Shown here piece after piece: positions 14,319-38,122 of a DNA stretch of 58,540 bases. The stretch's first letter is position 1; the number at the start of each line of letters is the position of its first letter. The stretch is from Actinomycetota bacterium (lineage in GTDB: Bacteria; Actinomycetota; Thermoleophilia; RBG-16-64-13), in contig JAMDEO010000128.1 in the NCBI GenBank assembly GCA_023483915.1, positions 1 to 58,540 of the forward strand. Reading direction: 5' to 3'. The notes beneath the pieces are model-generated. The model was given only the letters and a program-made list of their open reading frames with translations. It was not told where the DNA came from and searched no databases. The translations under genes were made by a program, and so were the position numbers.

Positions 14319-14327
14319 GACGGTCGC

Positions 14328-22168: not shown

Positions 22169-22687
22169 ATGAGGGGCAGGAACAACATAGGTAACCCGGA
22201 AGAATTGGCGCGGCTTTATGACGCGGCCTTCCAGTACGAGAGAACCAATGGCTGCTGCGCCCAGTGTGTTCTCGCCGCAGTGCAGGACGTTTTGGGGAGA
22301 GGCACCGACGATATCTTTCAGGCCTCGCATACTCTGAGTGCGGGAGGCGGGCTGACGACCATGGGTACCTGTGGCGCACTCGCCGGCGCGCTGCTTGCGG
22401 TAGGCTCGGTGTACGGACGTACTCGGGAGGATTTTGCGAGCGGGCCAGGCCAGGCCTCCTTCGTGGTGGCCAAAGAAGTCTTCGACGGATTCGTGGGGGA
22501 ATTCGGAGGGGCAACTTGCGCCGAAGTCCAGACGAAGGTCATGGGTAGATCCTTCAATATGTGGGACAGCAACGATTTCCAGGCGTTTCTGAAAGCGGGA
22601 GGCCATGAAGACAAGTGCCCGCATGTGGTCGGCTTTGCGGCCCGGCTGGCCGGAGAGTATCTCTGCGGACGAGAATCCCTGAGCTAA
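22169..22687 (+). CDS. C_GCAxxG_C_C family redox-active protein
   Basis: NGCCAQCVLAAV, MGTCGALAGALLAVG, GATCAEV and KCPHVV are the characteristic Cys pattern. The start codon abuts the GMC stop. Confidence 0.85.
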   Translation: MRGRNNIGNPEELARLYDAAFQYERTNGCCAQCVLAAVQDVLGRGTDDIFQASHTLSAGGGLTTMGTCGALAGALLAVGSVYGRTREDFASGPGQASFVVAKEVFDGFVGEFGGATCAEVQTKVMGRSFNMWDSNDFQAFLKAGGHEDKCPHVVGFAARLAGEYLCGRESLS

Positions 22688-22896: not shown

Positions 22897-24324
22897 ATGG
22901 CAGATCAGAACCAAGAGAGCAAGCAGTACAGTCGTCGTGACTTCCTCAAGGTCGCCGGCATCGCAGGGGCCTCAGTGGGTCTCGCCGGAGGGCTGGGCGG
23001 AGTGCTCAGCGCCTGCGGCGGTGGCGAGGAGACCACCACCAGCGCGTCCGAGGCGACCACGACCACAGCCGGGGTGACGACTACCGCTGGCGCCACAACC
23101 ACGGTGAGCTCCGCTCCAGAGCAGGCCCGAGCCATCAAACTGGGGCTGGTCTCGCCGAAGACCGGCAACTTCTCGGTCTTTGCCATCTCCGATGATTGGT
23201 ACGTAGCCCACGCCACCGAGGCCCTCAAAGACGGGATCGTTGGGGCTGACGGCAAGCTGCGTATGATCGAGATCGTGGTCAGAGACACCCAGTCAGACTC
23301 CAACCGGGCCGCCCAGGTGGCGGCCGACCTGGTCCAACTGGACAACGTGGATATGCTCCTTGCCTCTGGAACTCCGGATACCTGCAACCCGGTTTCCGAC
23401 CAAGCCGAGGCCCTTGGCTGCCCTGTGCTAAACAGCTTCTCCCCGTGGCAGGCCCTGTTTCTCGGCGCCGGCAAGCCGGCTGAGTGGAAGTGGGTCTACG
23501 GCAATATGCTGGGATCTGAGGAGACGATCGCATCTTTCACCGACGCCTTTGAGACCAGCGGAGTGCAGACGAACAAGAAGGTGGGGATGCTCTTTCAGAA
23601 CGACGCCGACGCCCAAGGCTGGATGGACCCCTCGGCGGCGCCGAAGGTGTTCGCCGAGAAGGGATACACCCTGGTGGTCCCCGAATACTACTCGGTCCCG
23701 GCTGAGGACTTCACCAAGCAGATAAGCCAGTTCAAGAGCGAAGGCTGCGAGATCGTCTGCGGCACCAACGACCCGCCGTGGTTCTCGAACTTCCTCACCC
23801 AGAGCCTGCAGCAGGGCTTCCATCCCAAGTTCATCAGCTCAGGTAAGGCCCTCATCTTCCCGCAGGCCGTACTCAGCTATCCCAACAAGGGTCTCGGCCT
23901 CATAGGGGAAGCCGCCTGGCACCCGAGCTGGAAGATCAAGGACACCCTCTCTGATCTCGACTCTGAAGGTCTGGCCGCGGATTACGAGGCCAAGACCGGC
24001 CAGCAGTGGACGGCGGCCATCGGCACCTACGGGAAAGTGGAATGGGCCATCGACGTATACAAGCGGGCCACGAACCCCGAGGACAAAGAAACCGTCGTCG
24101 AGGCCATCAAAACCACTAAGGGCGACTTCCAGCAGGGTCACATCGACTTCACCGAGCCGGTCGACCCCAATAGCTTCCATCCCATCCCAAACAACTACAA
24201 GCCGTACATCGGTGCTCAACAATGGCGCAAAGGCACCAAGTACGATATCGAGCCGGTGGTGGTCAGCAACGCCGCCGCTCCGGGCACCACAGTGCAAGAC
24301 AAAGCCCAGCCGATGACGTACTAG
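22897..24324 (+). CDS. ABC transporter substrate-binding lipoprotein (branched-chain amino acid/amide type, Peripla_BP_6-like) with Tat-type signal
   Basis: SRRDFLKVAGIAGASVGLAGGLGGVLSAC (twin-Arg plus lipobox), a Thr-rich linker, then IKLGLVSPKTGNFSVFA... typical of LivJ-like binders. Confidence 0.8.
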   Translation: MADQNQESKQYSRRDFLKVAGIAGASVGLAGGLGGVLSACGGGEETTTSASEATTTTAGVTTTAGATTTVSSAPEQARAIKLGLVSPKTGNFSVFAISDDWYVAHATEALKDGIVGADGKLRMIEIVVRDTQSDSNRAAQVAADLVQLDNVDMLLASGTPDTCNPVSDQAEALGCPVLNSFSPWQALFLGAGKPAEWKWVYGNMLGSEETIASFTDAFETSGVQTNKKVGMLFQNDADAQGWMDPSAAPKVFAEKGYTLVVPEYYSVPAEDFTKQISQFKSEGCEIVCGTNDPPWFSNFLTQSLQQGFHPKFISSGKALIFPQAVLSYPNKGLGLIGEAAWHPSWKIKDTLSDLDSEGLAADYEAKTGQQWTAAIGTYGKVEWAIDVYKRATNPEDKETVVEAIKTTKGDFQQGHIDFTEPVDPNSFHPIPNNYKPYIGAQQWRKGTKYDIEPVVVSNAAAPGTTVQDKAQPMTY

Positions 24325-24372
24325 GAGGAAGAGCCCTTCGGGGCCATTCCGGAAAGACACACCGAGACCACG

Positions 24373-24406
24373 GGGGCCGCCGATCGCCTTGGCGATCGGC
24401 GGCCCC
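24373..24406 (+). terminator. Rho-independent-type terminator hairpin after the solute-binding-protein gene
   Basis: 16-bp perfect inverted repeat ggggccgccgatcgcc/ggcgatcggcggcccc followed by gctcttct. Confidence 0.6.
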
Positions 24407-24485
24407 GCTCTTCTAAGGAGTACGGAGATCACGATTGCAGGCCGGCGGGGATGCGATTCTGCCGCGCGCTGTGTAGACTGGCGCA

Positions 24486-25061
24486 ATGTCTCGTTTTGAC
24501 TTTGCCGAGGTGCGCGTCCGTGTTGCCTCATCATCGGACGGAGCCCTTCTTGCTCGACTGGGGGCGGAGACGTTTCGCGACACCTTCGCCGCGGACAATT
24601 CTCCAGAGGACATGGAGGCTTATCTGGCTGAGGCTTTTGGTCCGGCTATACAAGCCGGAGAGCTTGTGGACCCTCACTCGACTTTCCTTGTCGCCGAGGC
24701 CGAAGGAGTTCCTGTCGGCTACGCGCGCTTGAGAATTGGGACCGCTCCGGCGGTCATCGAAGGGCTAAATCCCGTCGAGATCGCGCGCTTCTACGCGAGC
24801 AAAGAGGCCATGGGACTGGGTGTGGGGGCCCGAATGATGAGCGAGTCACTTGCTCTGGCTCAGCGAAGAGGATGCGACGTCGTGTGGCTGGATGTCTGGG
24901 AGAGGAATTATCGAGCTATCGCTTTCTATGGGAAATGGGGCTTTGCCGAAGTGGGCGAGCAGCCGTTCCGGCTTGGCTCGGATGTTCAACGGGATCTCCT
25001 CATGGCACGCAAGATAAGTGCCTCGCTAACCGACACTATCAACCCTGGTAGATTGACATAA
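24486..25061 (+). CDS. GNAT family N-acetyltransferase
   Basis: EIARFYASKEAMGLGVGARMM...VWLDVWERNYRAIAFYGKWGF is the acetyl-CoA-binding motif A/B pattern. Confidence 0.85.
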   Translation: MSRFDFAEVRVRVASSSDGALLARLGAETFRDTFAADNSPEDMEAYLAEAFGPAIQAGELVDPHSTFLVAEAEGVPVGYARLRIGTAPAVIEGLNPVEIARFYASKEAMGLGVGARMMSESLALAQRRGCDVVWLDVWERNYRAIAFYGKWGFAEVGEQPFRLGSDVQRDLLMARKISASLTDTINPGRLT

Positions 25062-25087
25062 AGGCCTAGAAATGAGAACATATGTTC
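25053..25087 (+). promoter_or_regulatory. Putative promoter (-35 TTGACA at 25053-25058) overlapped by a perfect GAACATATGTTC palindrome (25076-25087, LexA/Cheo-box-like) upstream of the POR-NuoEF operon
   Basis: TTGACA, then a 17-nt spacer, then GAACAT at the -10 position. The 12-bp palindrome matches GAAC-N4-GTTC exactly; in context it reads gaGAACATATGTTCgt. Confidence 0.45.
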
Positions 25088-25165
25088 GTCACGCGGGCCG
25101 CAAACCCCGTGTGGAAAAAGAGGTAATATCCCAGGCGACGTTCATCGTTGCTGGAGGTTGCAGAG

Positions 25166-25762
25166 TTGGATAGCGGGCCGAGCGGGGGCGCCGCCGGGCT
25201 GACTGAGATCCGGTGGCACGCACGCGGCGGGCAAGGCGCGGTCACAGCAGCAAAAATGGTGGCCGAGTTGGCTCTGGGCCAGGGGAAGTACTTTCAAGCC
25301 TTCCCTGAATATGGTCCGGAACGTTCTGGCGCGCCAATCGTTGCGTTCACCAGGGTCAGCGACGACCCCATTAACATCTATTCTGGTGTAGAGCATCCGC
25401 AGATCGTGGTGGTGCTGGACGCTTCTCTCATAAGCGCAGTGGACGTCACGAGGGGTGCCTCGAACGACGTGGTCATCTTGGTAAACACTGAGCTGCCTCC
25501 GGGGGGCGTCCGCGAACGCTATGGCCTCAAGGGAGGACGTCTGTTCACCGTAGATGCCAGTCGGATTGCGATGGAGACTCTGCGCCGCGCCATACCCAAC
25601 ACTCCCATGATCGGGGCGCTTGCCAAGGCTACCGGGTTGTTCCAGGTCGAGGATGTGGCTGAGTTCATCCGGCATGACTTTGCCAAGAAATTCTCGGCGA
25701 AAGTTGTGGAAGGCAATATCGCGGCACTGACACGCAGTTACGACGAGGTTAGGGGCGAATGA
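25166..25762 (+). CDS. 2-oxoacid:ferredoxin oxidoreductase gamma subunit (POR/VOR type; substrate not assignable)
   Basis: ORF 25148..25762. TTG 25166 lies 8 nt after GGAGG. Blocks: EIRWHARGGQGAVTAAKMVAELA...FPEYGPERSGAP. Confidence 0.88.
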   Translation: MDSGPSGGAAGLTEIRWHARGGQGAVTAAKMVAELALGQGKYFQAFPEYGPERSGAPIVAFTRVSDDPINIYSGVEHPQIVVVLDASLISAVDVTRGASNDVVILVNTELPPGGVRERYGLKGGRLFTVDASRIAMETLRRAIPNTPMIGALAKATGLFQVEDVAEFIRHDFAKKFSAKVVEGNIAALTRSYDEVRGE

Positions 25763-26082
25763 TGGCCGGGAGTCGGCCCAAATGGGACATCAGCGATGTC
25801 GATGAGTGGGGTCCCGATGATCACGAATTGGGAGCCACCATCCCGGAATCAGGCAATTCGGTTCTCAATATCACCGGAGGTTGGCGTTCTCTCCTTCCGA
25901 TCATCGATTGCGAGAAGTGCGACGGCTGCCTCCTTTGCTACTTCTACTGTCCGGATGCCTCCATCCTTATGGAGGATGGCAAGGCCGTAGGGGTGGATCT
26001 AGACCACTGCAAGGGTTGCGGAATCTGCGCCAAGGAATGCCCCGCAAAGGCGATCACCATGGTGGCGGAGAAGAAGGAGTAG
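25759..26082 (+). CDS. 2-oxoacid:ferredoxin oxidoreductase delta subunit (2x[4Fe-4S])
   Basis: CEKCDGCLLCYFYCP and CKGCGICAKECP motifs. ATGA overlap with the gamma-subunit stop. Confidence 0.9.
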   Translation: MMAGSRPKWDISDVDEWGPDDHELGATIPESGNSVLNITGGWRSLLPIIDCEKCDGCLLCYFYCPDASILMEDGKAVGVDLDHCKGCGICAKECPAKAITMVAEKKE

Positions 26083-26085
26083 CGG

Positions 26086-27291
26086 GTGCCTAGACTGAAC
26101 AGGGAAACCGTCGCGGTCACCGGCAATGAAGCCGTTGCCGAGGCAATGCGCCAGATCAACCCAGACGTGGTGTGCGCCTATCCCATTACGCCCCAGACTG
26201 AAATCGTGCAACTTTACGCGCAGATGGTGGCCGACGGGAAGGTGACGAGCGAGTTCGTCACGGTCGAATCGGAGCACTCGGCCATGAGTGCCGTGATCGG
26301 CTCGGCTGCGGCCGGTGCCCGGACAATGACCGCCACCTCCTCACAGGGGTTCGCCCTGATGTGGGAGATGCTCTATGTCGCAGCCAGCTACCGTCTTCCC
26401 ATCGTGATGACGACCGTGAACCGCGCCCTCTCTGGTCCGATCAACATTCACTGCGATCACTCAGACACCATGGGCGGCCGTGACACCGGCTGGATCCAGC
26501 TGTACGGCGAGAACCACCAACAAGCCTACGATAATTGCCTGCAGGCCCTCCGCATCGCCGAGCATCTAGATGTTCGGTTGCCGGCCATGCATATGTACGA
26601 TGGATACGTCATCTCGGGAGCCATCGGGCCGCTGGTCATGCTGCCCGATGCGAAGGCACGCGAGTTCGTAGGTCCATATCACGCTATCAATCCGCTTCTG
26701 GACGTGGCAAACCCCGTCACAGTCGGCCCCTTCGATGGTCTGCATGGCTGGTATTTCGAACACAAGGTCGCGCAAAACCGGGCCATGGACCGGGCGCTGA
26801 CGGTGATTCAGGGTGTGGCCGACGAGTATGCGGAGATCAGTGGCCGCCCGTACGGACTCCTGGATCCCTACCGTCTAGAAGACGCCGACATCGCTATCGT
26901 CGTCGTGGGTTCGACTGCGGGTACCACCCGCATGGTCGTTGACAAGCTCCGCACCCGCGGGGTAAAAGCCGGGATGGCGCGGGTTAGGGTCTTTCGGCCT
27001 TTCCCGCACGAGGCATACGCTAAGGCGCTGGAACACGTGAAGGTTGTTGGGGTCTTGGACCGCGCGGATTCGAGCGGCGCCCAGGGCGGCCCGGTCTTTC
27101 TGGAGGTCCGTTCGGCTCTCTACGACTCGGATCCGCGGCCGCAGGTTCTGCCTTTCATCTACGGCTTGGGAGGCCGGGATATCTTCCCGGATGACATTGA
27201 GCACGCATTTGCACAACTCGAAGAAGCTGCGCAGAGCACGCGGCGGAGCTCTATCGAGCGACGCTACCTGAACCTGCGCGAGGACAAGTGA
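26086..27291 (+). CDS. 2-oxoacid:ferredoxin oxidoreductase alpha subunit
   Basis: VTGNEAVAEAMRQINPDVVCAYPITPQTEIV, SEHSAMSAVIGSAAAGARTMTATSSQG; 401 aa. Confidence 0.9.
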   Translation: MPRLNRETVAVTGNEAVAEAMRQINPDVVCAYPITPQTEIVQLYAQMVADGKVTSEFVTVESEHSAMSAVIGSAAAGARTMTATSSQGFALMWEMLYVAASYRLPIVMTTVNRALSGPINIHCDHSDTMGGRDTGWIQLYGENHQQAYDNCLQALRIAEHLDVRLPAMHMYDGYVISGAIGPLVMLPDAKAREFVGPYHAINPLLDVANPVTVGPFDGLHGWYFEHKVAQNRAMDRALTVIQGVADEYAEISGRPYGLLDPYRLEDADIAIVVVGSTAGTTRMVVDKLRTRGVKAGMARVRVFRPFPHEAYAKALEHVKVVGVLDRADSSGAQGGPVFLEVRSALYDSDPRPQVLPFIYGLGGRDIFPDDIEHAFAQLEEAAQSTRRSSIERRYLNLREDK

Positions 27292-28061
27292 ACATGGCGA
27301 TAGATAACGGCCGTAACGATGGCGGCAACGGACACAAAGGCGACCAGGCGAAGGGTTCCGCACTTTTCGAGGTGATCCAAGGTATCGATTTCGAGAGACG
27401 CGAGCTGGTAGGTAAGCGCCAAGGCTCTGGAGATTTCGACTTGGTCAAGGACAACGGCGGCAAGGACCGGTGCTACGCATGCACCCTTTGCGAAAGGACT
27501 TGCCCCGTGGATTGTATCGATATCGGGTACACCGCGAGTGACCCCATGCTGGGTAGCGCAATCGCGGCTCCAGAGGACGCGGCGCCACCAGTCGATATGA
27601 AGCTTTTCGACCCCATCATTGCGGGTATCCGCTCGGGTTCGGGCCTGGTCGAGGCCCTGCACGCTACCCAGGAAGCCTATGGATTTCTCCCTAGACCTGC
27701 TCTCGAAGGCATTGCCGACCAGATGAACCTTCCGCTTTCCAGAATCTACGGAGTAGCAAGTTTCTACGGTCAGTTTCGGTTGAAGCCAGTGGGCAAACAC
27801 GTGATCGAGGTATGCCTGGGTACGGCCTGCCACGTGCGTGGGGCTCCCCTTGTGGTTGAAGCTTTCAGCCAAGAGCTGGAGATACCCGTGGGTGGGACTA
27901 CCCCTGACGGTCTGTTCACCCTGCAAACGGTGAACTGCCTGGGTGCCTGTGCGCTCGCCCCTGTGGTTCGGTTGGGGACCGATGAAACCGTCGGCCGCTT
28001 GGGCCCGAATGAGGCACGTAGGCTGGTGAGAAGGTTGCGGAAGCAGGAGGTCCGAGCATGA
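27288..28061 (+). CDS. NuoE/HydC-like [2Fe-2S] thioredoxin-fold subunit with an unusual ~85-aa N-terminal extension carrying one CxxCxxCxxxCP motif
   Basis: EVCLGTACHVRGA and NCLGACALAP form the Cx4C...Cx3C cluster motif. The extension contains CYACTLCERTCPVDC. GTGA overlap with the alpha-subunit stop. Confidence 0.85.
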   Translation: MNMAIDNGRNDGGNGHKGDQAKGSALFEVIQGIDFERRELVGKRQGSGDFDLVKDNGGKDRCYACTLCERTCPVDCIDIGYTASDPMLGSAIAAPEDAAPPVDMKLFDPIIAGIRSGSGLVEALHATQEAYGFLPRPALEGIADQMNLPLSRIYGVASFYGQFRLKPVGKHVIEVCLGTACHVRGAPLVVEAFSQELEIPVGGTTPDGLFTLQTVNCLGACALAPVVRLGTDETVGRLGPNEARRLVRRLRKQEVRA

Positions 28062-29956
28062 GCGCCGCTTCCAGCAGAGTAGGCCAGGCCCTCCAAGCGG
28101 CGGTTTCCGCGGGCGCCGGCACCTATCTGGCCGACGACACCAAACGCGAGATCCGCATTTGTGCGGGTACCGCTTGCCACGCCTCGGGCCGGGTTGCTCT
28201 GAGGAAAGCGATCGACGCGGCCCTCGAGGAGCGTGGGTTGGCCGGAGATGTGGCGGTCGTCGAGACCGGCTGCCACGGTTTCTGCGAAGAAGGGCCAATT
28301 GTGGTGGTGAGGCCTGAGGGCGTCTTCTACCCACGGCTGAAGCCGGTGGACATCCCCGAGGTCATCGAGACGAGCGTGATGGGCGACGGCGTGGTGGAGA
28401 GACTTCTTTACGTTGATCCCGCGACGGGGCGGCGGGTTGCTCACGAACGGGAGATTCCGTTTTACGCGCTGCAGAAGCGTATTGTGCTCGGCCTCAACGG
28501 CAAGATAGATCCTTACTCCTTGGACGACTACCTCGCCCACGGTGGATACTCGGCGCTGGCCAAGGTCCTATCGCAGGGCGACCCACAGAACATCATCGCT
28601 GAGGTCGAGAACAGCGGACTTCGCGGGCGCGGGGGAGCGGGATTCCCCACGGGCAAGAAGTGGCGCCTGTGCCGACAGAACTTGGGGGAAAAGCATTACG
28701 TTATCTGCAACGCCGACGAAGGCGACCCCGGAGCCTTCATGGACCGTTCGGTGCTGGAGGGTAACCCTCACAGTGTGATCGAGGGCATGATAATCGCCGC
28801 CTATGCTATTGGGGGCGGGAATGGGCCGGTGGAAGGCTACATCTACGTCCGCCGGGAGTACCCGTTCGCCGTGGATCGGGTCCGACATGCGCTAGACCGG
28901 GCGAGGGAACGCAATCTGCTGGGCAAAGACATCCTTGGCTCGGGGTTCGACTTCGATATCCGCGTAAATCAAGGGGCCGGAGCCTTCGTATGCGGCGAAT
29001 CAACGGCGCTCACCGCTTCCATCGAGGGTCAGCGGGGCATGCCGCGAGGCAAGCACGTCCGCACGGTAGCGCACGGGCTCTGGGGTGAGCCCACCAATAT
29101 CAACAACGTGGAGACATACGCCAACGTGCCCTTCATCGTGAAGAGCGGGGCCGATGTGTTTGCCTCAACCGGCACCGCAACGAGCAAAGGCACGAAGATC
29201 TTCTCCCTCACCGGCAAGGTGGTGAATGGCGGGCTTATCGAGGTTCCCATGGGAGCGACGCTTCGTGAGGTCATCTTCGAGATCGGCGGCGGTATGCTGC
29301 CGGGCCGCGAATTCAAGGCCGTTCAACTCGGCGGCCCATCAGGCGGCTGTTTGCCGGCCGCTTTGCTCGACGAGCCGATCGATTTCGAGAGTTTGCTGGC
29401 GGCCGGCTCGATGATGGGCTCAGGGGGTATGGTTGTAGTGGACGACAGCACTTGCATGGTGGATTTTGCCAAGTTCTTCCTCAAGTTCACTGCTGAGGAA
29501 AGCTGTGGCAAATGCGTGCCCTGCAGGGTGGGAACAAGTCGCATGCTCGAGATTCTCGAGCGCATCTCCGAAGGCCGCGCGAGTCTCCAGGACCTCGATC
29601 TGCTGGAGAGCCTGGCAGACGATGTCGTCGAAGGCTCCTTGTGCGCTCTCGGAGGAAGTGCACCCAACCCCGTGCTCTCATTGCTGCGCTACTTCAGGGA
29701 CGAAATCGTCTCGCATGTGGTGGAGCACAACTGCCCGGCCAAGGTGTGCCGGCCGCTCATCCGCTACGGTGTTGATGCCGAAGCCTGCACTGGGTGTGCC
29801 GCTTGTATTGCGGTTTGTCCGGTCCACGCCGTGAGCGGCGAGCGCAAGGCCGTTCATTCCATAGATGAGGATCTGTGCATCAAGTGCGATGCCTGCCGCC
29901 GAGCGTGTAGGTTTAATGCCGTTTCCGTAGAGACGGGGGTGCTTGCGCCGGCATGA
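28058..29956 (+). CDS. NuoF/HydB-like NADH-binding FMN flavoprotein (N-terminal [2Fe-2S] thioredoxin-like domain, C-terminal 2x[4Fe-4S])
   Basis: ICAGTACHASG...TGCHGFCEEGP; GLRGRGGAGFPTGKKW; ICNADEGDPGAFMDR; ESCGKCVPCRVGT; CTGCAACIAVCP and CIKCDACRRAC. ATGA overlap with the upstream stop. Confidence 0.9.
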   Translation: MSAASSRVGQALQAAVSAGAGTYLADDTKREIRICAGTACHASGRVALRKAIDAALEERGLAGDVAVVETGCHGFCEEGPIVVVRPEGVFYPRLKPVDIPEVIETSVMGDGVVERLLYVDPATGRRVAHEREIPFYALQKRIVLGLNGKIDPYSLDDYLAHGGYSALAKVLSQGDPQNIIAEVENSGLRGRGGAGFPTGKKWRLCRQNLGEKHYVICNADEGDPGAFMDRSVLEGNPHSVIEGMIIAAYAIGGGNGPVEGYIYVRREYPFAVDRVRHALDRARERNLLGKDILGSGFDFDIRVNQGAGAFVCGESTALTASIEGQRGMPRGKHVRTVAHGLWGEPTNINNVETYANVPFIVKSGADVFASTGTATSKGTKIFSLTGKVVNGGLIEVPMGATLREVIFEIGGGMLPGREFKAVQLGGPSGGCLPAALLDEPIDFESLLAAGSMMGSGGMVVVDDSTCMVDFAKFFLKFTAEESCGKCVPCRVGTSRMLEILERISEGRASLQDLDLLESLADDVVEGSLCALGGSAPNPVLSLLRYFRDEIVSHVVEHNCPAKVCRPLIRYGVDAEACTGCAACIAVCPVHAVSGERKAVHSIDEDLCIKCDACRRACRFNAVSVETGVLAPA

Positions 29957-32649
29957 GGGAGACAACTGTGACAACGACCACCGCGAAAGCCCTGGAACTC
30001 ACCATTGACGGACGGCCGCTTCGGGCCAACGAGGGCGAAACCATCCTCGAAGTGGCCCGGCGGGAGGGCATCGATATCCCTGCTCTCTGCCATGAGGCGG
30101 GTATGGCTGCATGGGGCGCCTGCCGTCTCTGCCTGGTGGAGGTTGAAGGGTCTGACAAGCTTCAAACCGCCTGCACGGCCAAGGCTGTTGCCGGAATGGT
30201 TGTGCGGACGAACGCCGACCGTGTGCGTGCGCGCCGCGAGAGCTACCTCAAGATGTACCTCTCGGATCACAATGCCTATTGCGAAGCGCCCTGCACCGAC
30301 GCCTGCCCAGCACATATCGACATCGCCGGCTATATGGCGGCGCTTTCCGCCGAAAAGGTCGAGGAGGCGGCTGAGATCATCCGGCGGGATCTGCCATTCC
30401 CCGGAATACTCGGCGTGGTCTGCGAAGCCCCTTGCGAAAAGGTCTGCCGAAGAGGCGAGGTTGACGAGCCCATCGCCATCTGTGCGCTTCATGGCGCGGT
30501 GGGTGACTACGTCCAGCCCAGACTCGAGGTTGGCGCTCCCAGCGGGAAACGCGTTGCCATCATAGGTGCGGGTCCTGCGGGATTGAGTGCGGCCTGGTAC
30601 CTCGCGGGATCGGGGCATCAGGTCAGCGTATACGACTTGAATGAGCTTCCCGGCGGGTCGCTGCGCTATGGCGACCCGCAAGAAAGGCCCGGAGAGATTC
30701 TTGACGTCGAACTGCAACCTCTTTGGGAGGCCGGGGTACGCTTCGTAGGCAAGTCGACTCTTGCTCGCGACGATGCCGCGACGACGCTTCTCGAGGCCGG
30801 GTTTGACGCCGTGATCCTCGCGGCAGGCGGGCAGCCGGCCGCAAACTTCTACACGGGCCGGACCGACGCAAAAGGCATTTTCGCGGTAGCCGGCAACGGT
30901 GTTGCGGAGGAATCAGTCATCCAGCAGGTGGCCGCCGGTAAGCGCTCGGCTCTTGCGGTGGACGCCTGGATGAAGGGTGAGGATCTGGGGCGGCTGGAGG
31001 AGACCCTGGCCGATTATGCGGGTCTGCCGTACCTGGAGCAACTCAAGGTTGCCGCCGGACTCTCACCTGTGGAGATGCGGCTTGCCGAACGCAGCCCCGT
31101 ATGGCTGAAGATGGGCATCAATGCGAGCCCGGCGCCGCGAATGACCGCTATCGCCTTGACAGATGCCGGTGCCCCGGTGGGTGGCGGTTTGGCGGCCGGA
31201 CGTGAGACTCCGGAGCCGCTCAGCCTTGCCGAGGTCAAAGCCGAGGCCGAACGCTGTCTGCAGTGTGTCTGCCCAAGCCTGGGCAAGTGCGATCTGCAGA
31301 GACTGGGCGTGGAATACGGACTTACTGAAAACGAACTGGTGGTGAAGGGCGCCCGGGTGCGGTCGGTCGAACCGCAGCACGATCATCCCTTCATCGAGCG
31401 CGACATGAATCGCTGCATTGCGTGCGGCAAGTGTGTTCGCGTGTGTCGAGACGTAGCCGGCCCCGCCTGCTACGAGTTCTCCGGACGCGGCTTTACCATG
31501 CGGGTCGACACCGCCTACAGTGAGCCGCTCGCACTGGCCGGCTGCATCACCTGTGGACGGTGTGTCACCTCCTGCCCTACCGGGGCGCTTACTTTCAATG
31601 AACGAACGCTGGACTCCTTCCGTGTGGACGAGAGTCGTTGCATCATGTGCAAGGAGTGCGTCGGGGTGTGCCCGGTGAACGCTCTCGACGAGACGGAACG
31701 GTTCGAGGAAGCCCGCAGCCAGTGGCTAGAGCTCGTAGCCCGCGGCAGTGGGCTTGCCGGGGGGCACCGGATGTGCGCAGGCTGCGGTGCCCCCATCGTG
31801 GTGCGCCAGGTTCTCATGGGTTCGAGCGACCCGGTTGTGGTGAGTGCGGCAACCGGGTGCCTCGAGGTCAGTACGACCATCTACCCATATACATCCTGGA
31901 AGGGCAGCTTTATACACACGGCCTTCGAAAACTCGGCGGCCACCCTGAGCGGTGTGGAGACCGCATTCCGCGCCCTAAAGAAGAAGGGCCTCATCGAGGA
32001 CAACGTAAAGTTCATCGCCTTCGGTGGCGACGGTGGCACCTATGACATCGGTCTGCAGGCGCTCTCGGGCGCCATGGAGCGTGGCCATCGCATGCTCTAC
32101 GTCTGCTACGACAACGGCGCCTACATGAACACCGGCTTCCAGCGTTCGGGAGCCACGCCGGTCGCGGCCTGGACAACTACCAGCCCGGTGGGTGAGGAGT
32201 CGGCCGGAAAGCTGCAGCACCGAAAAGACCTGACCGAGATCATGGTGGCGCATGGCCTCGAGTATGTCGCTCAGGCCTCGCCGCATGATCCCAGGGACTT
32301 GGTGCGCAAGGCGGCGAAGGCCCTCTCCGTCGACGGGCCTACCTTCCTGAATGTTCTTTCCCCCTGCCCACGGGGATGGCGCGCGGACGGCTCGGACACT
32401 ATCGACTTGGCCCGAGAAGCCGTTAACACCTGCTACTGGCCACTGTTCGAGGTCGAGAAGGGGGAATATCGCCTGACGTACCGGCCGAAGGTCAAGCAGC
32501 CGCTTGCACCATGGTTAAAACGCCAGGGACGCTTCGCTCACCTCTTCACCCCAGGCTACGAGGATGCTCTTAGGCAAATCGAGGAATGGGTAGACCGGGA
32601 GTGGAAGGAACTTCTTCGCAAGTGCGGCGAACCGATCGACGAGGACTGA
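29953..32649 (+). CDS. Chimeric Fe-S flavoprotein: NuoG/HydA-type [2Fe-2S] domain + GltD-like Fe-S/FAD module + NuoG-type and ferredoxin-type [4Fe-4S] domains + C-terminal POR beta (TPP-binding) subunit
   Basis: aa 14-88: LTIDGRPL...ALCHE...GACRLCLVEV...TAC. aa 98-186: CEAPCTDACP...VVCEAPCEKVC. aa 198-343: KRVAIIGAGPAGLSAAWYLA...GGSLRYG...GIFAVAGNG. aa 435-449: CLQCVCPSLGKCDLQ. aa 488-573: RCIACGKCVRVC, CITCGRCVTSCP, CIMCKECVGVCP. aa ~595-898: GHRMCAGCGAPIVVRQ, AFGGDGGTYDIG, VCYDNGAYMNTGFQRSG. ATGA overlap with the nuoF-like stop. Confidence 0.85.
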   Translation: MRETTVTTTTAKALELTIDGRPLRANEGETILEVARREGIDIPALCHEAGMAAWGACRLCLVEVEGSDKLQTACTAKAVAGMVVRTNADRVRARRESYLKMYLSDHNAYCEAPCTDACPAHIDIAGYMAALSAEKVEEAAEIIRRDLPFPGILGVVCEAPCEKVCRRGEVDEPIAICALHGAVGDYVQPRLEVGAPSGKRVAIIGAGPAGLSAAWYLAGSGHQVSVYDLNELPGGSLRYGDPQERPGEILDVELQPLWEAGVRFVGKSTLARDDAATTLLEAGFDAVILAAGGQPAANFYTGRTDAKGIFAVAGNGVAEESVIQQVAAGKRSALAVDAWMKGEDLGRLEETLADYAGLPYLEQLKVAAGLSPVEMRLAERSPVWLKMGINASPAPRMTAIALTDAGAPVGGGLAAGRETPEPLSLAEVKAEAERCLQCVCPSLGKCDLQRLGVEYGLTENELVVKGARVRSVEPQHDHPFIERDMNRCIACGKCVRVCRDVAGPACYEFSGRGFTMRVDTAYSEPLALAGCITCGRCVTSCPTGALTFNERTLDSFRVDESRCIMCKECVGVCPVNALDETERFEEARSQWLELVARGSGLAGGHRMCAGCGAPIVVRQVLMGSSDPVVVSAATGCLEVSTTIYPYTSWKGSFIHTAFENSAATLSGVETAFRALKKKGLIEDNVKFIAFGGDGGTYDIGLQALSGAMERGHRMLYVCYDNGAYMNTGFQRSGATPVAAWTTTSPVGEESAGKLQHRKDLTEIMVAHGLEYVAQASPHDPRDLVRKAAKALSVDGPTFLNVLSPCPRGWRADGSDTIDLAREAVNTCYWPLFEVEKGEYRLTYRPKVKQPLAPWLKRQGRFAHLFTPGYEDALRQIEEWVDREWKELLRKCGEPIDED

Positions 32650-32771
32650 CCTGAGGTACAAGTCCGCTCTGGCTGTCACATAGCCTGCGTCGTCATTCGT
32701 CCGGCGATTGATAGCTGGTATCGTGTGTCACACTTGGAAGTTCCCTCCTCAGAGCAAGGACGTGGCCAGAA

Positions 32772-33626
32772 ATGTTCTATCCGTGCAGCATTGACCTCAT
32801 TGACGGGTCGGCGGCGAAGCATGCCGTCATAGTTCTCACTCCCGCCGAATCCAGGCGACTTCTGGCCAAAGCGGTGGTTGGCCTGCCGGAGGTGCGCTGG
32901 GCCTTCGAGAATGGAAAGCTTGCCATACCCGCCGGCTCGACTGGTGCGTTCGTTGTGGAGGAGCTCACAGGCGAGAAGATCGAGCCCTACCGCTTCTGTG
33001 TAGGCATGAGTGCCGCAGGTATGCTGACCCAGACTCTGCCTGACGACCGTATCTACGGAAGATTCTATGACAAAGGCAGGGAGTCAGAGCTCTCCTACCA
33101 GGACTTCATTGCATCGCTTGGCCAGGGGGACGTGGTCATCAAAGGGGCAAACGCGGTCGATTCTGCGGGAAACGTGGGCGTCCTCCTCAGCAGCGACGTG
33201 GGCGGGCTGGTAGGCCTCATGTTCGGCATCGTGTCCGCCCGCGGCATCAAAGTCATCTGCCCGGTGGGTTTGGAGAAGCAGGTGGCTTCCGTGCCTGAAG
33301 CTTCTGCCGGGTGGGGCCAATTATCCCTGGATTATTCGATGGGCCTTCGAGTCGGCATGTCCTCTTTAACGGATCCCAAGGTCCTGACCGAAATCCAGGC
33401 ATTGGCCACCCTTGCGGGAGTTCGTGCACGGCATCTGGGTAGCGGGGGAATCGGAGGGAACGAGGGGGCGGTAATTTTGCTGCTCGAGGGCTCATCCGAG
33501 GGTCTCGAAAGAACTCTGGAACTCGTCCAATCCGTGAAGGGGGAGCCGCCAATCGAGGTGATCCGCCATCATTTACAGTACCTGAGGCTCGCGACGGGGC
33601 AGTTGACAACCAAAAAGGGCCGATAA
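32772..33626 (+). CDS. Hypothetical protein, family not recognised
   Basis: 284-aa ORF with good coding character and no overlap with other calls. Blocks such as GDVVIKGANAVDSAGNVGVLLSSDVGG and GIKVICPVGLEK suggest a conserved globular alpha/beta protein, but I cannot assign a family. Confidence 0.6.
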   Translation: MFYPCSIDLIDGSAAKHAVIVLTPAESRRLLAKAVVGLPEVRWAFENGKLAIPAGSTGAFVVEELTGEKIEPYRFCVGMSAAGMLTQTLPDDRIYGRFYDKGRESELSYQDFIASLGQGDVVIKGANAVDSAGNVGVLLSSDVGGLVGLMFGIVSARGIKVICPVGLEKQVASVPEASAGWGQLSLDYSMGLRVGMSSLTDPKVLTEIQALATLAGVRARHLGSGGIGGNEGAVILLLEGSSEGLERTLELVQSVKGEPPIEVIRHHLQYLRLATGQLTTKKGR

Positions 33627-35073: not shown

Positions 35074-35805
35074 CTAGCTGCGTGGGCCGTCACTATTCCG
35101 CGGATTCACTAGATGCTTGCGCATTTCGGCGGCCGCTCGCTCGGGGTCGCGGTCTCTCACGGCTGCCAGAATGCGGTCATGGTTCTCGCGGATGATGTCC
35201 ACCCGCTGGTCATCGATGACGTGATCGAGAGGGACAAAGATCTCGCGGCGTATGGTCATCATGGCTTCTGTGAGATGAGGGTTGCCCGCCGCCCGAGCGA
35301 GGGCGTTGTGGAATTCCTTGTGCCGCTCCACAACCACGGCCCTGGTCGGGTTCTTCGGGATCCGCGCCCCTTCCAGCCTGTGAAGGTCGGCTTCTGTGCG
35401 TCGCTGAGCGGCCAGCGCAGCGATCGTGGATTCGATGATCTCGTGGAACTCGAGAAGGCTGTCGAGCTGATCGCCCTGCGCCCGGATCCACTCGTCAAAA
35501 CATCGTTCCAGCGCAGCCGGGTTATTGACCCTTGTTCCGCCGTGCGCGCCCACCTTGGTGACAAGATACCCCGCCGCCTCCAATGATTTGAGGGCCTCGC
35601 GAAGGGTAATGCGGGAAATGCCAAACTGTGCAGCGAGCTCTCGCTCTGGAGGTAGCCGGTCGCCCGGCCCCATCTCCCCGCTGAAGATAAGCCCGAGGAC
35701 CAGGCGCCGGGCAGTGTCGCTCGCCCGTGTTTGTTCGATTGGCTTCTCGCAGACGGTGCTGGTGGTTGGTCGATCAGCGTTCATAGTTAACAGAATATCG
35801 TTCAT
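35074..35805 (-). CDS. GntR family (FadR/FCD subfamily) transcriptional regulator
   Basis: This is the C-terminal part of the 502-aa ORF 35074..36582. The winged HTH is LPPERELAAQFGISRITLREALKSLEAAGYL, followed by an FCD-type ligand domain. Candidate starts are ATG 35805 (MNDILLTMNADRP) or ATG 35784 (MNADRP). Everything upstream is antisense to hsp20. Confidence 0.85.
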   Translation of the reverse strand: MNDILLTMNADRPTTSTVCEKPIEQTRASDTARRLVLGLIFSGEMGPGDRLPPERELAAQFGISRITLREALKSLEAAGYLVTKVGAHGGTRVNNPAALERCFDEWIRAQGDQLDSLLEFHEIIESTIAALAAQRRTEADLHRLEGARIPKNPTRAVVVERHKEFHNALARAAGNPHLTEAMMTIRREIFVPLDHVIDDQRVDIIRENHDRILAAVRDRDPERAAAEMRKHLVNPRNSDGPRS

Positions 35806-35819
35806 AGTTAACAGAATAT
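35778..35819. repeat. Perfect 2 x 21-bp tandem direct repeat CGTTCATAGTTAACAGAATAT spanning the GntR start codon(s) in an AT-rich patch
   Basis: Copy A at 35778-35798 and copy B at 35799-35819 are identical. Each carries CAT (ATG on the minus strand) and the GTTAAC palindrome. Confidence 0.95.
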
Positions 35820-35955
35820 AGCTCTTTCTCGCTGGGATCAATGGTCGGACTAATAACCCATCTCCATGCCCGTTTGGAATCCCGGTTGCCCTGGGTATGC
35901 ACACTGTATCCCAAACCGCGAGGTAGCTATGCATCCGCTCGGAGGTGATGACACG

Positions 35956-36411: not shown

Positions 36412-36414
36412 ACA

Positions 36415-36451
36415 GGGGCGCGGGCGGCCCTCACGCGGCCGCCCGCGCCCC
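36415..36451. terminator. Bidirectional GC-rich terminator hairpin between convergent hsp20 and the HEAT-repeat gene
   Basis: 15-bp perfect stem ggggcgcgggcggcc/ggccgcccgcgcccc with a 7-nt loop, 4 nt after the hsp20 stop. Confidence 0.6.
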
Positions 36452-38118: not shown

Positions 38119-38122
38119 AACC

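What the first reader, a model, noticed from the sequence alone, without database searches (positions are those of the whole stretch)
25148..32649. Translationally coupled operon wiring a 2-oxoacid:ferredoxin oxidoreductase to a HydBC/NuoEF-type NADH flavoprotein module
Seen in sequence:
- Six + strand genes follow one another: POR gamma, delta, alpha, a NuoE/HydC-like subunit, a NuoF/HydB-like subunit, and a fusion protein ending in POR beta.
- There are 4-nt ATGA/GTGA start-stop overlaps at 25759, 27288, 28058 and 29953, and only a 3-nt gap at 26083-26085.
- The flavoprotein has an N-terminal thioredoxin-like [2Fe-2S] domain, the FMN/NADH motifs GRGGAGFPTGKKW and NADEGDPGAF, the ESCGKCVPCR cluster, and a C-terminal 2x CxxCxxCxxxC(P) ferredoxin domain.

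Established: that subunit architecture is the one used by NADH- and ferredoxin-dependent flavin-based electron-bifurcating [FeFe]-hydrogenases and formate dehydrogenases (HydABC type).

Inference: no hydrogenase or FDH catalytic subunit is present, so the catalytic partner here is a four-subunit-type POR/VOR. This predicts a complex coupling 2-oxoacid oxidation or reductive carboxylation (about -500 mV) directly to NAD(H), possibly with ferredoxin as a third partner (bifurcation or confurcation).

Limit: I cannot establish from the sequence whether this arrangement has been characterised biochemically.
Basis: partly seen in the sequence, partly recalled or inferred. Interest (0 to 1): 0.85.

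Follow-up and report, generated by a model that had tools for sequence, protein, structure and literature searches.

The report
Pyruvate oxidoreductase fused to bifurcating flavoprotein
Six overlapping genes encode a pyruvate-type 2-oxoacid oxidoreductase whose TPP-binding subunit is fused to the adaptor subunit of a HydBC/Bfu-type NADH flavoprotein; this kind of enzyme ("Por-Bfu") was predicted in 2022 but has not been assayed, and this is a new fused variant from uncultured soil Actinomycetota.

Summary
The six + strand ORFs, the four 4-nt start/stop overlaps, the 3-nt gap and all quoted motifs are present.

The gene order porC-porD-porA-bfuC-bfuB-fusion recurs in every related genome locus with enough upstream DNA. 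These are about 65 species-level MAGs, almost all uncultured Thermoleophilia or other Actinomycetota. The adjacency is therefore not chance.

It is an NfnA/StnC-like BfuA: a [2Fe-2S] domain, an NfnL/GltD-like two-cluster plus flavin module, and NuoG-type Fe-S clusters. Its C-terminal Fdh-like domain is replaced by PorB.

About 110 homologue clusters are 1005-1085 aa and carry a second Rossmann NAD(P)H subdomain. The window protein (898 aa) and one unrelated homologue have lost exactly that subdomain, and both show eroded flavin-site motifs. All Fe-S ligands are retained.

BfuB and BfuC carry every sequence signature of the bifurcating core.

The concept is not new. Schut et al. 2022 predicted an uncharacterised seven-gene "Por-Bfu" in Dehalococcoides. 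I found no biochemical study.

Verdict: a real, conserved, new fused variant of a known predicted kind. The fusion is strong evidence for a physical complex. NAD(H) coupling is likely; bifurcation with ferredoxin is plausible but untested.

The parts
25148..25762 (+). porC: POR gamma subunit (204 aa from the TTG at 25148; the likely real start is the TTG at 25166)
   Evidence: Pfam POR 7e-39. NCBIfam PorC/KorC subfamily TIGR02175, 192 bits against a cutoff of 81. GGAGG lies 8 nt before 25166.
25759..26082 (+). porD: POR delta subunit with 2x[4Fe-4S]
   Evidence: TIGR02179 PorD_KorD, 99 bits against a cutoff of 60. Eight Cys ligands (C54/57/60/64 and C84/87/90/94) are 100% conserved in 65 homologues. 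ATGA overlap with porC.
26086..27291 (+). porA: POR alpha subunit
   Evidence: POR_N 3e-71 and PFOR_II 4e-30. The best NCBIfam hit is PorA_Arch at 472 bits, below the equivalog cutoff of 550.
27288..28061 (+). bfuC: NuoE/HydC/BfuC-like subunit (257 aa) with the C1 [2Fe-2S] site and an N-terminal extension
   Evidence: 2Fe-2S_thioredx 1.5e-42 at residues 118-250. The best solved relatives are Csac NfnC, Tsib NfnC and StnA. C176/181/217/221 are 100% conserved. GTGA overlap with porA.
27471..27515 (+). Cys motif CxxCxxCxxxCPxxC (residues 62-76) in the BfuC N-terminal extension; probably an extra [4Fe-4S] site
   Evidence: NuoI-like and Fer4 half-motif hits. C62/65/68/72 are 100% conserved in 63 homologues. 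The window lacks a further 25-aa, two-Cys segment that 46 of 63 homologues have.
28058..29956 (+). bfuB: NuoF/HydB/BfuB-like flavoprotein (632 aa). It has an N-terminal [2Fe-2S] domain, the FMN/NADH site, the B1 [4Fe-4S], the Zn/B2 site and C-terminal 2x[4Fe-4S] (B3/B4).
   Evidence: Pfam. It aligns over its full length (31-622) to A. mobile NiFe-HydB 7t2r_B at E=2e-232, then to T. kivui and A. woodii HydB and to NfnB/StnB. All ligands are 95-100% conserved.
29953..32649 (+). bfuA'-porB fusion (898 aa): an NfnA/StnC-like adaptor fused to the POR beta subunit
   Evidence: Pfam and NCBIfam. PDB sequence search: residues 14-352 match Csac NfnA 9bov_A (1.8e-88) and StnC 8oh5_C; residues 600-881 match PFOR beta 9bt4_C (5e-82). 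Foldseek gives the same top hits.
29986..30213 (+). A1 [2Fe-2S] domain (Fer2_4, residues 12-87)
   Evidence: Fer2_4 8e-21. C46/57/60/74 are 97-98% conserved. pLDDT is mostly 87-92, dipping to about 60 at residues 41-60.
30268..30513 (+). Fer4_20 module, two [4Fe-4S] sites equivalent to A6/A7 of NfnA
   Evidence: Fer4_20 4e-14. C110/114/118 and C157/161/165/177 are 98-100% conserved. The window differs at 10 of 52 otherwise conserved columns, against a family median of 1.
30535..30987 (+). Remnant FAD-binding domain of the GltD/NfnL-like module (residues 195-345); the NAD(P)H subdomain is deleted
   Evidence: GAGPAG is retained, and NAD_binding_8 and Pyr_redox_2 match only profile positions 2-117 of 291. 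IPEFRLP is changed to DPQER-P and AAGD to AVAGN. The domain is confidently folded, pLDDT 80-95.
30838..30843 (+). Deletion junction (A296|A297), where relatives carry the second Rossmann (NAD(P)H) subdomain (the window protein is about 110-190 aa shorter than full-length homologues)
   Evidence: Alignments A1 and agb.aln. Only the window and P0041, out of 113 sequences, lack it.
31243..31692 (+). NuoG/HydA-type Fe-S region: A2 (C435/438/440/446), two ferredoxin-type motifs (C488-498, C531-541), C506 and an extra CxxCxxCxxxCP (C563-573)
   Evidence: Fer4_Nqo3 and Fer4_7. All Cys are 99-100% conserved. AF2 confidence is low, as expected without the clusters.
31738..32649 (+). PorB domain (residues 596-898): TPP-binding beta subunit with the proximal [4Fe-4S]
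   Evidence: TPP_enzyme_C 1.4e-18. PorB PRK11865 scores 358 bits against a cutoff of 405. GDG...YDNGAYMNTG and C608/611/636/805 are present. It shares 47% identity and TM 0.72 with M. acetivorans PFOR beta.

Best explanation
The six genes form one operon encoding a single multi-subunit 'Por-Bfu'-type enzyme.

Composition:
- PorA, PorB, PorC and PorD form a TPP/CoA-dependent 2-oxoacid oxidoreductase. Pyruvate is the most likely substrate.
- PorB is covalently tethered, through NuoG-type Fe-S clusters and an NfnA/StnC-like N-terminal part, to the BfuB-BfuC flavoprotein core.

Proposed electron path (inferred by homology to Csac NfnABC and S. ovata StnABC structures):
- Electrons leave TPP through the proximal PorB cluster and the PorD clusters.
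- They then pass through the A-type clusters of the fusion protein to A1.
- From A1 they reach the B1-FMN-C1 site of BfuBC.
- There NAD+ is reduced at the FMN. Most probably ferredoxin is reduced at the C-terminal B3/B4 domain of BfuB in an obligatorily coupled, bifurcating reaction: 2 pyruvate + 2 CoA + NAD+ + Fd(ox) -> 2 acetyl-CoA + 2 CO2 + NADH + Fd(red).

The GltD-like side branch:
- In most relatives the fusion protein also carries a complete GltD/NfnL-like flavin/NAD(P)H side branch.
- In this window the branch has lost its NAD(P)H subdomain and its flavin-site motifs are eroded. Here it is probably only a structural or Fe-S remnant.

Shown: the architecture, the fusion, conserved synteny and conserved ligands. 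Inferred: complex formation, the electron path, NAD(H) use, bifurcation and direction.
For: Operon:
- Four 4-nt overlaps and a 3-nt gap.
- The order is conserved in all of about 65 loci with upstream DNA, and in metagenome contigs.

Physical link:
- The BfuA-like-PorB fusion occurs in more than 110 clusters.
- The N-terminal part matches NfnA/StnC of solved Bfu complexes by sequence and by fold.

Bifurcating-type core:
- BfuB aligns end to end with bifurcating HydB and NfnB.
- It keeps TCMVD, ESCGKCxPC, CALG, H...CPAKVC, the N-terminal [2Fe-2S] and the C-terminal 2x[4Fe-4S].
- According to Schut 2022, non-bifurcating homologues lack B2-B5.

Precedent: Wor-Bfu oxidises a -560 mV substrate only when both NAD and Fd are present.

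POR identity: all four subunits match Por families best.

Evolution: the nearest unfused PORs are plain porCDAB without Bfu genes. The Bfu genes therefore look like an insertion between porA and porB.

Degenerate side branch.
Against: - No enzyme of this class has been purified or assayed.
- Pyruvate at about -500 mV could reduce NAD+ or Fd directly, so the need for bifurcation is not obvious. Schut et al. note this themselves.
- All Por NCBIfam scores fall below the equivalog cutoffs, so the 2-oxoacid is not established.
- No multimer model could be made, so a continuous Fe-S chain from PorB or PorD to A1 is not demonstrated.
- AF2 confidence is low across the Fe-S linker, residues 437-585.
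- The window copy carries deletions in the fusion protein and in BfuC that most relatives lack. This could mean altered or reduced function.
Confidence: 0.55

Rival explanations
1. Non-bifurcating NAD+-dependent pyruvate oxidoreductase. The BfuBC module acts only as a diaphorase that passes POR electrons to NAD+, making the enzyme a functional analogue of pyruvate dehydrogenase. The extra BfuB clusters would be vestigial or structural, and ferredoxin is not required.
For: - The reaction is thermodynamically downhill without a partner (-500 to -320 mV; Table 1 of Schut 2022).
- NAD-linked OFORs exist: NCBIfam lists the NADH-dependent phenylglyoxylate dehydrogenase PadEFGHI.
- NuoEF-containing enzymes that do not bifurcate are known (a 2026 mBio title).
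Against: - Every ligand of the B2/Zn, B3, B4 and B5 sites, which non-bifurcating homologues lack, is 95-100% conserved across 59 homologues.
- Wor-Bfu, with an equally low-potential donor, is strictly bifurcating.
Confidence: 0.25
2. The complex works mainly in reverse, as a pyruvate synthase. NADH plus reduced ferredoxin drive reductive carboxylation of acetyl-CoA for anabolism. Schut et al. proposed this for Dehalococcoides.
For: - Schut 2022 proposes gluconeogenic pyruvate formation for Por-Bfu.
- Related uncultured Actinomycetota carry the Wood-Ljungdahl pathway with por, nuo and gltD genes nearby (figure legends in PMC7325909).
- The best NCBIfam names are 'pyruvate synthase' PorA-D.
Against: - Mixing NADH (-280 mV) with Fd (-500 mV) gives a mean potential well above the pyruvate couple. 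Confurcation would therefore make pyruvate synthesis harder than with Fd alone. This is an inference from Table 1.
- The operon sits in housekeeping or miscellaneous contexts, not next to CO2-fixation genes, in this window and in most loci.
Confidence: 0.1
3. The window copy is a decaying or functionally reduced version. The loss of the NAD(P)H subdomain, the eroded flavin motifs and the deletion in BfuC would mark an operon on its way to pseudogenisation.
For: - The window is an outlier at conserved columns of Fer4_20 (10 of 52), the linker (5 of 26) and Fer2_4 (5 of 35).
- It has two deletions relative to the family consensus.
Against: - All six ORFs are intact and keep their start/stop overlaps.
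- All Fe-S ligands are retained.
- PorB is as conserved as in typical relatives, 3 of 210 mismatches against a median of 3.
- An independent lineage (P0041, L081) has the same clean domain excision in an intact operon.
- The BfuC segment is also absent in about 17% of relatives.
Confidence: 0.05
4. Two independent enzymes, a normal ferredoxin-dependent POR and a separate NuoEF-like oxidoreductase, merely share an operon.
For: Co-transcription alone does not prove a complex. Schut 2022 raises the same caveat for Codh-Bfu.
Against: - PorB and the BfuA-like adaptor are one polypeptide in more than 110 clusters.
- No separate porB or bfuA gene exists in the operon.
- bfuC and bfuB lie between porA and the fusion gene.
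Confidence: 0.03

Closest known systems
Por-Bfu (predicted pyruvate-oxidoreductase member of the BfuABC family; Schut et al. 2022, Front Microbiol 13:946711; example Dehalococcoides mccartyi 195)
   Same: - Four POR subunits are encoded together with HydABC-like BfuA/B/C genes.
- BfuB has the full bifurcating-type ligand set.
- The window's BfuB motif CALGGSAPNPV is identical to the D. mccartyi Por-BfuB row in their supplement.
- Neither enzyme has been characterised biochemically.
   Different: - The published class has seven separate genes (A-G), a small BfuA with only clusters A1, A2 and A4, and occurs in Chloroflexi and syntrophic Proteobacteria.
- Here there are six genes and BfuA is fused to PorB.
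- The fusion carries an NfnL/GltD-like module and extra Fe-S motifs.
- BfuC has a Cys-rich N-terminal extension.
- The hosts are Actinomycetota.
Nfn-Bfu / StnABC electron-bifurcating transhydrogenases (S. ovata 8OH5; C. saccharolyticus 9BOV; T. sibiricus 9N5U)
   Same: - These are the best solved relatives of the fusion protein's residues 14-352 and of BfuC, and close relatives of BfuB.
- They share the same order of [2Fe-2S], Fer4_20, FAD domain and NuoG-type clusters.
- The electron path FAD-A7-A6-A3-A2-A1-[B1-FMN-C1]-B3/B4 is established for them.
   Different: - Their large subunit ends in an Fdh-like domain and has a complete NADPH site.
- Here the C-terminal domain is PorB.
- In this window the NAD(P)H subdomain is deleted, so NADP(H) cannot be the third substrate.
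Four-subunit pyruvate:ferredoxin oxidoreductase (PorABCD/GDAB type; e.g. Methanosarcina acetivorans PFOR, 9BT4)
   Same: - All four subunit families are present, with the TPP motif and the proximal, medial and distal cluster ligands.
- The gene order gamma-delta-alpha-...-beta is kept.
- PorB is 47% identical to 9bt4_C.
   Different: Canonical enzymes, and the nearest metagenomic relatives, have contiguous porCDAB, a free roughly 300-aa PorB, and use only ferredoxin.
Wor-Bfu (WorABCSL, Acetomicrobium mobile): bifurcating tungsten aldehyde oxidoreductase
   Same: A very low-potential substrate (-560 mV) is oxidised by an accessory catalytic module plugged into BfuABC. NAD+ and Fd reduction are strictly coupled. 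This is the functional precedent for the mechanism proposed here.
   Different: The catalytic module is unrelated (tungstopterin), is not fused to BfuA, and forms a nanowire oligomer.
NADH-dependent phenylglyoxylate dehydrogenase PadEFGHI (Azoarcus/Aromatoleum). NCBIfam models were used here; the biochemistry is from my own knowledge.
   Same: It is a 2-oxoacid:acceptor oxidoreductase of the same alpha/beta/gamma/delta family that reduces NAD+ through an extra subunit. The Pad models hit all four Por products.
   Different: - Scores are far below the Pad cutoffs, for example PadG 298 against 700 and PadI 220 against 700.
- The Pad enzyme has no NuoEF/BfuBC module.

Membership tests
BfuABC family (bifurcating HydABC-like enzymes, Schut 2022) | BfuB with an FMN/NADH site and the B1 [4Fe-4S] (ESCGKCxPC ... 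C) | tested here: met
   Complex1_51K 1e-42 and NADH_4Fe-4S 1.7e-32. Motifs lie at residues 190-227 and 481-490, with C529. The ligands are 100% conserved.
BfuABC family (bifurcating HydABC-like enzymes, Schut 2022) | Extra BfuB sites absent from non-bifurcating NuoF homologues: the N-terminal [2Fe-2S] (B5), the Cys/His/Cys/Cys Zn or B2 site, and the C-terminal 2x[4Fe-4S] (B3/B4) | tested here: met
   - C35/40/72/76.
- TCMVD (C466) plus H553...C559/C564.
- C577-587 and C607-617.
- Full-length alignment to 7t2r_B.
BfuABC family (bifurcating HydABC-like enzymes, Schut 2022) | BfuC with the C1 [2Fe-2S] thioredoxin-like domain | tested here: met
   2Fe-2S_thioredx 1.5e-42. C176/181/217/221 are 100% conserved.
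BfuABC family (bifurcating HydABC-like enzymes, Schut 2022) | BfuA with A1 [2Fe-2S] and A2 [4Fe-4S] linking the third-substrate module to BfuBC | tested here: met
   Fer2_4 at residues 12-87, and C435/438/440/446. Homology to NfnA/StnC.
BfuABC family (bifurcating HydABC-like enzymes, Schut 2022) | Obligatorily coupled reduction of NAD+ and ferredoxin by the third substrate | not testable with these tools
   This needs an enzyme assay. No published assay of any Por-Bfu was found.
Por-Bfu as described (seven-gene, D. mccartyi type) | Four POR subunits encoded in one cluster with BfuABC homologues | tested here: met
Por-Bfu as described (seven-gene, D. mccartyi type) | Separate BfuA (clusters A1, A2 and A4 only) and separate PorB: seven subunits A-G | tested here: not met
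   BfuA and PorB are one 898-aa protein with additional Fer4_20, FAD-domain and ferredoxin-type motifs.
Nfn-Bfu / Stn transhydrogenase | Large subunit with a GltD/NfnL-like domain holding two [4Fe-4S] clusters, FAD and a complete NADPH-binding Rossmann subdomain | tested here: not met
   Fer4_20 and the first FAD Rossmann are present. The NAD(P)H subdomain is absent, and the GD and IPEFRLP motifs are eroded in the window. About 110 relatives do carry the subdomain.
Nfn-Bfu / Stn transhydrogenase | C-terminal Fdh/NuoG-like (molybdopterin-fold) domain in the large subunit | tested here: not met
   No molybdopterin-type domain appears in Pfam. The C-terminus is TPP_enzyme_C/PorB.
Four-subunit 2-oxoacid:ferredoxin oxidoreductase (Por/Vor type) | Alpha (POR_N + PFOR_II), beta (TPP GDG...NN motif plus 4 Cys), gamma (POR) and delta (2x[4Fe-4S]) subunits | tested here: met
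Four-subunit 2-oxoacid:ferredoxin oxidoreductase (Por/Vor type) | Pyruvate as the specific 2-oxoacid (equivalog-level match) | tested here: inconclusive
   Por models are the best hits for all four subunits, ahead of Vor, Kor, Ior, oxalate and Pad models. All scores are below the equivalog cutoffs: 472 against 550, 358 against 405, 198 against 270, and 102 against 120.

The most novel reading that the evidence does not exclude
The Actinomycetota enzyme family may be a hybrid 'Por-Nfn-Bfu' redox hub. In the common long form, one complex would link pyruvate/acetyl-CoA, NAD(H), a second nicotinamide site on the GltD-like flavin, and ferredoxin. The window would then hold a natural knock-out of the second nicotinamide arm. 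It would be a minimal, covalently tethered Por-Bfu that bifurcates pyruvate electrons to NAD+ and to very low-potential ferredoxin. Comparing long and short natural forms would dissect the branches of a four-substrate bifurcating enzyme.
Probability: 0.3. Interest if true: 0.75.

Novelty: new variant of a known kind. Interest (0 to 1): 0.5.

Why it matters
- POR is the central pyruvate/acetyl-CoA enzyme of anaerobes. If it is plugged into a bifurcating BfuBC core, half of the pyruvate electrons leave as NADH. The other half could be pushed onto ferredoxin even when the ferredoxin pool is highly reduced. That would change redox-balance models for these organisms.
- Por-Bfu has so far rested only on gene adjacency in a dozen sequences. 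The PorB-BfuA fusion, conserved in more than 100 species-level lineages of widespread, uncultured soil, sediment and digester Thermoleophilia, is much stronger 'Rosetta-stone' evidence that the complex is real.
- The fusion also gives a convenient target for expression, because one polypeptide carries both interfaces.
- The natural loss of the NAD(P)H subdomain in two lineages is a ready-made comparison for deciding what the GltD-like arm does.

Tried and rejected
- **Promoter and terminator scan** of 24300-33000. Counts were at or below shuffle expectation, and the fold of the downstream spacer had z = +0.49. Neither is informative, so the operon inference rests on overlaps and synteny.
- **Conserved neighbours.** Flanks vary: DnaX/RecR, thiamine pyrophosphokinase, a GNAT, a HAD hydrolase and IMPDH appear in subsets. 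None is shared with the window, so they give no functional clue beyond the TPK/TPP link.
- **Exact-DNA search** for the deletion junction in metagenome contigs: no hit. The protein-based metagenome scan found only long forms plus ordinary PORs.
- **L072** looked like the closest relative (84%). It is a frameshifted long form, close only in the PorB part.
- **P0115 and P0120** looked like split versions. Their loci are frameshift-riddled copies of the same operon.
- **PadH-like origin of the GltD-like module**: no Pad model hit that region.
- **AF2 model of the fusion protein.** Mean pLDDT was 62.5, good only for the [2Fe-2S], FAD-remnant and PorB parts. No coordinates were available, so cluster-to-cluster distances could not be measured.
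- **Regex survey of the NAD(P)H dinucleotide motif.** About 70 of 113 sequences are canonical GxGxxA. The residues after beta-2 lack the RR typical of NADPH-specific GltD, so nucleotide specificity is left open.
- **Orphan Fer4-PorB ORFs** (L095, L097) sit in unrelated contexts and were not pursued.

Full report
**1. Observation**

The window is about 60% G+C throughout. One search lists six + strand ORFs exactly as described:
- 25148-25762
- 25759-26082
- 26086-27291
- 27288-28061
- 28058-29956
- 29953-32649

One search confirms the ATGA/GTGA start-stop overlaps at 25759, 27288, 28058 and 29953. It also confirms the 3-nt spacer (CGG) at 26083-26085. Reasonable Shine-Dalgarno sequences precede most starts. 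For the first gene, GGAGG lies 8 nt before an in-frame TTG at 25166, which is probably the real start.

Pfam and NCBIfam assign the products as follows:
- Gene 1 is PorC (gamma).
- Gene 2 is PorD (delta, 2x[4Fe-4S]).
- Gene 3 is PorA (alpha, POR_N + PFOR_II).
- Gene 4 is a NuoE/HoxE/HydC-like thioredoxin-type [2Fe-2S] protein.
- Gene 5 is a NuoF/HydB-like flavoprotein with an N-terminal [2Fe-2S] domain and a C-terminal di-cluster ferredoxin domain.
- Gene 6 is an 898-aa protein that begins with Fer2_4 and ends with TPP_enzyme_C (PorB).

The quoted motifs are all present. No hydrogenase H-cluster or molybdopterin domain is detected in any of the six products.

**2. What the sixth protein is**

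It has the following parts, N- to C-terminal:
- Fer2_4, residues 12-87.
- Fer4_20, residues 109-187.
- A GltD/NfnL-like FAD Rossmann domain from residue 200. It matches only the first third of Pyr_redox_2.
- A poorly conserved linker.
- An all-Cys A2-type motif (C435/438/440/446).
- A NuoG/HydA-type di-cluster domain (C488-498, C531-541).
- One more CxxCxxCxxxCP motif (C563-573).
- PorB, residues 596-898, with the GDG...YDNGAYMNTG TPP motif and the four proximal-cluster cysteines.

Against solved structures, residues 14-352 match best the large subunits of the Bfu-type transhydrogenases:
- C. saccharolyticus NfnA (9bov_A, 1.8e-88).
- S. ovata StnC (8oh5_C).
- T. sibiricus NfnA (9n5u_A).

Residues 600-881 match the beta subunit of M. 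acetivorans PFOR (9bt4_C, 5e-82). An AF2 model gives the same top Foldseek hits. Its mean pLDDT is 62.5. Confidence is high in the [2Fe-2S] domain (apart from a dip at residues 41-60) and in the FAD-remnant domain, moderate in PorB, and low in the cluster-rich linker.

The protein is therefore an NfnA/StnC-type BfuA whose C-terminal Fdh-like domain has been replaced by PorB.

**3. Relatives and conservation**

The big protein collection holds 2428 homologues at E<=1e-20. The top ~110 clusters share the whole architecture. They are 1005-1085 aa long and also carry PF00070, the second NAD(P)H-binding Rossmann subdomain.

A scan of one genome per species found 127 loci. The best 80 are almost all uncultured Thermoleophilia, Gaiellales or other Actinomycetota MAGs from soil, sediment, peat and anaerobic reactors.

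tblastn with the six window proteins shows the order porC-porD-porA-bfuC-bfuB-fusion in every locus with enough upstream sequence, about 65 of 65. The same order is seen in metagenome contigs and in the locus of the other short form.

The nearest unfused PORs in metagenomes are 58-65% identical in PorB. They have the canonical contiguous porC-porD-porA-porB order with no BfuB or BfuC within 7 kb. The actinobacterial operon therefore looks like a bfuC-bfuB-nfnA' cassette inserted between porA and porB and fused to the latter.

Flanking genes are not conserved. The window's own neighbours are unrelated: a solute-binding protein and a GNAT upstream, and hypotheticals and a GntR regulator downstream.

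**4. The window's peculiarity**

Alignments show that the window protein and P0041 (890 aa; loci L058 and L081) lack precisely the second Rossmann subdomain. The window junction is A296|A297.
- They are the only two of 113 full-length sequences to do so.
- They are not each other's closest relatives. The window is nearest to the long form P0001 at 75% identity. P0041 is nearest to P0109 and P0018 at 78%. The losses are therefore independent.
- The missing subdomain is also the fastest-evolving part of the family, at 41% mean pairwise identity against 65-83% for the other domains and 56% for the linker.
- At columns that are at least 90% conserved in long forms, the window is typical in PorB (3 of 210 mismatches, median 3). 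It is an outlier in Fer4_20 (10 of 52, median 1) and in the linker.
- Both short forms have lost the otherwise near-invariant IPEFRLP motif and the GD flavin motif.
- Up to about a quarter of long forms (27 of 111 by a simple regex) also lack a canonical GD.

By contrast, every Fe-S ligand in the fusion protein, PorD, BfuB and BfuC is retained and 95-100% conserved.

BfuC has a family-specific N-terminal extension with an invariant CxxCxxCxxxC motif. The window lacks a further two-Cys segment present in 46 of 63 relatives.

I read the GltD-like module in this window as a structural or Fe-S remnant without a nicotinamide site. The AF2 model still folds it confidently.

**5. Bifurcating-type core**

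BfuB aligns over its whole length with the B subunits of structurally characterised bifurcating enzymes. The best match is A. mobile NiFe-HydB at E=2e-232. It is followed by T. kivui and A. woodii HydB, then NfnB and StnB, and then T. maritima HydB.

BfuB has the signature listed in the supplement of Schut et al. 2022:
- TCMVD
- ESCGKCVPC
- CALG
- H-x5-CPAKVC

That paper states that non-bifurcating homologues lack these extra sites (B2-B5). The local motif CALGGSAPNPV is identical to the D. mccartyi Por-BfuB row there. This is a weak hint of affinity.

**6. Mechanism**

In C. saccharolyticus NfnABC the electron path is FAD-A7-A6-A3-A2-A1-[B1-FMN-C1]-B3/B4-Fd. In StnABC the GltD-like domain likewise feeds the NuoG-type clusters.

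By homology, the proposed route here is as follows:
- POR electrons pass from TPP to the proximal PorB cluster and then to the PorD clusters.
- They would enter the A-type clusters of the fusion protein, possibly through the extra C563-573 cluster or the BfuC N-terminal cluster.
- They would then reach the B1-FMN-C1 site.
- There NAD+ is reduced at the FMN. In the bifurcating model, ferredoxin is reduced at B3/B4.

The A6/A7-flavin arm is a side branch, so deleting its NAD(P)H subdomain need not break the main chain.

The precedent is Wor-Bfu. It oxidises a -560 mV aldehyde only when NAD+ and Fd are both present.

All steps after 'the proteins have these domains and are fused and co-conserved' are inference. 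On thermodynamic grounds I favour the oxidative direction. Averaging NADH with Fd gives a potential above the pyruvate couple (values).

The substrate is most probably pyruvate. Por models beat Vor, Kor, Ior, oxalate and Pad models for all four subunits, but no score reaches an equivalog cutoff.

**7. Comparison with what is known, and novelty**

Schut et al. 2022 (PMC9304861) defined the Bfu family. They predicted an uncharacterised 'Por-Bfu' with these features:
- 12 sequences.
- Seven separate genes A-G.
- A small BfuA holding only clusters A1, A2 and A4.
- Hosts among Dehalococcoides-type Chloroflexi and syntrophic Proteobacteria.

The term appears otherwise only in passing in a 2025 PNAS paper. 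I found no biochemical work on any POR-Bfu. A study of Wood-Ljungdahl Actinobacteria lists por, nuo and gltD genes side by side without interpreting them.

The idea is therefore known. What I did not find described:
- The six-gene actinobacterial form with an NfnA-like-PorB fusion.
- Its breadth across more than 100 species-level lineages.
- The Cys-bearing BfuC extension.
- The recurrent loss of the NAD(P)H arm.

The window's enzyme fails the membership tests for the seven-gene Por-Bfu (fused subunits, different BfuA) and for Nfn-Bfu (no NAD(P)H subdomain, no Fdh-like domain). It meets all sequence-testable criteria of the Bfu family and of four-subunit PORs. I rate it a new variant of a known, predicted kind.

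**8. Verdict**

Interest is 0.5. A specialist would not be surprised by POR-Bfu as such. The fusion is the best available evidence that the complex is real, and the long and short natural forms make the open biochemical question directly testable.

Noticed in passing
window 27288-27638 (BfuC residues 1-117): The NuoE/BfuC-like subunit has an N-terminal extension with an invariant CxxCxxCxxxC motif (C62/65/68/72). None of the solved NuoE/HydC/NfnC homologues aligns to this region. Most relatives carry three further Cys, two of them in a 25-aa segment that is deleted in the window.
   Followed up: partly
L010 and L013 (both on contig CAVZIK010000006.1): One MAG contig carries two paralogous copies of the whole six-gene operon. 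Both fusion proteins (P0005, P0013) are long forms with a degenerate GD flavin motif.
   Followed up: no
L072, L082, L083: In some long-read MAGs the operon is broken into several ORFs by frameshifts within bfuB and the fusion gene. This is either assembly error or pseudogenisation; the two cannot be told apart here.
   Followed up: partly
L082 804-1442 and about 10 other loci, upstream of porC: A thiamine pyrophosphokinase gene lies just upstream of the operon in a subset of genomes. This fits supply of the TPP cofactor.
   Followed up: no
L097 3235-4842 and L095: An orphan ORF encodes a ferredoxin-type domain fused to PorB. No porA, porC or porD is nearby, and in L097 it sits next to a multihaem cytochrome gene.
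   Followed up: partly
window 11577-15212 (- strand): A full-length LigD (phosphoesterase + ligase + primase-polymerase) lies next to Ku. Together they form a bacterial NHEJ pair.
   Followed up: no
window 37569-38462 (- strand): A 297-aa ORF has third-position G+C of 0.45, against about 0.7 for the neighbouring genes. It is either not a real gene or of foreign origin.
   Followed up: no
window 20828-22687: A GMC-type FAD oxidoreductase is immediately followed by a C_GCAxxG_C_C 'putative redox-active' protein, and a LarA_N-like gene lies at 17806-19071. These are redox genes of unknown role upstream of the operon.
   Followed up: no
window 35074-36582 (- strand): A 502-aa ORF has recognisable GntR + FCD regulator domains only in its C-terminal ~200 aa. 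The long N-terminal part is probably an over-extended ORF call.
   Followed up: no
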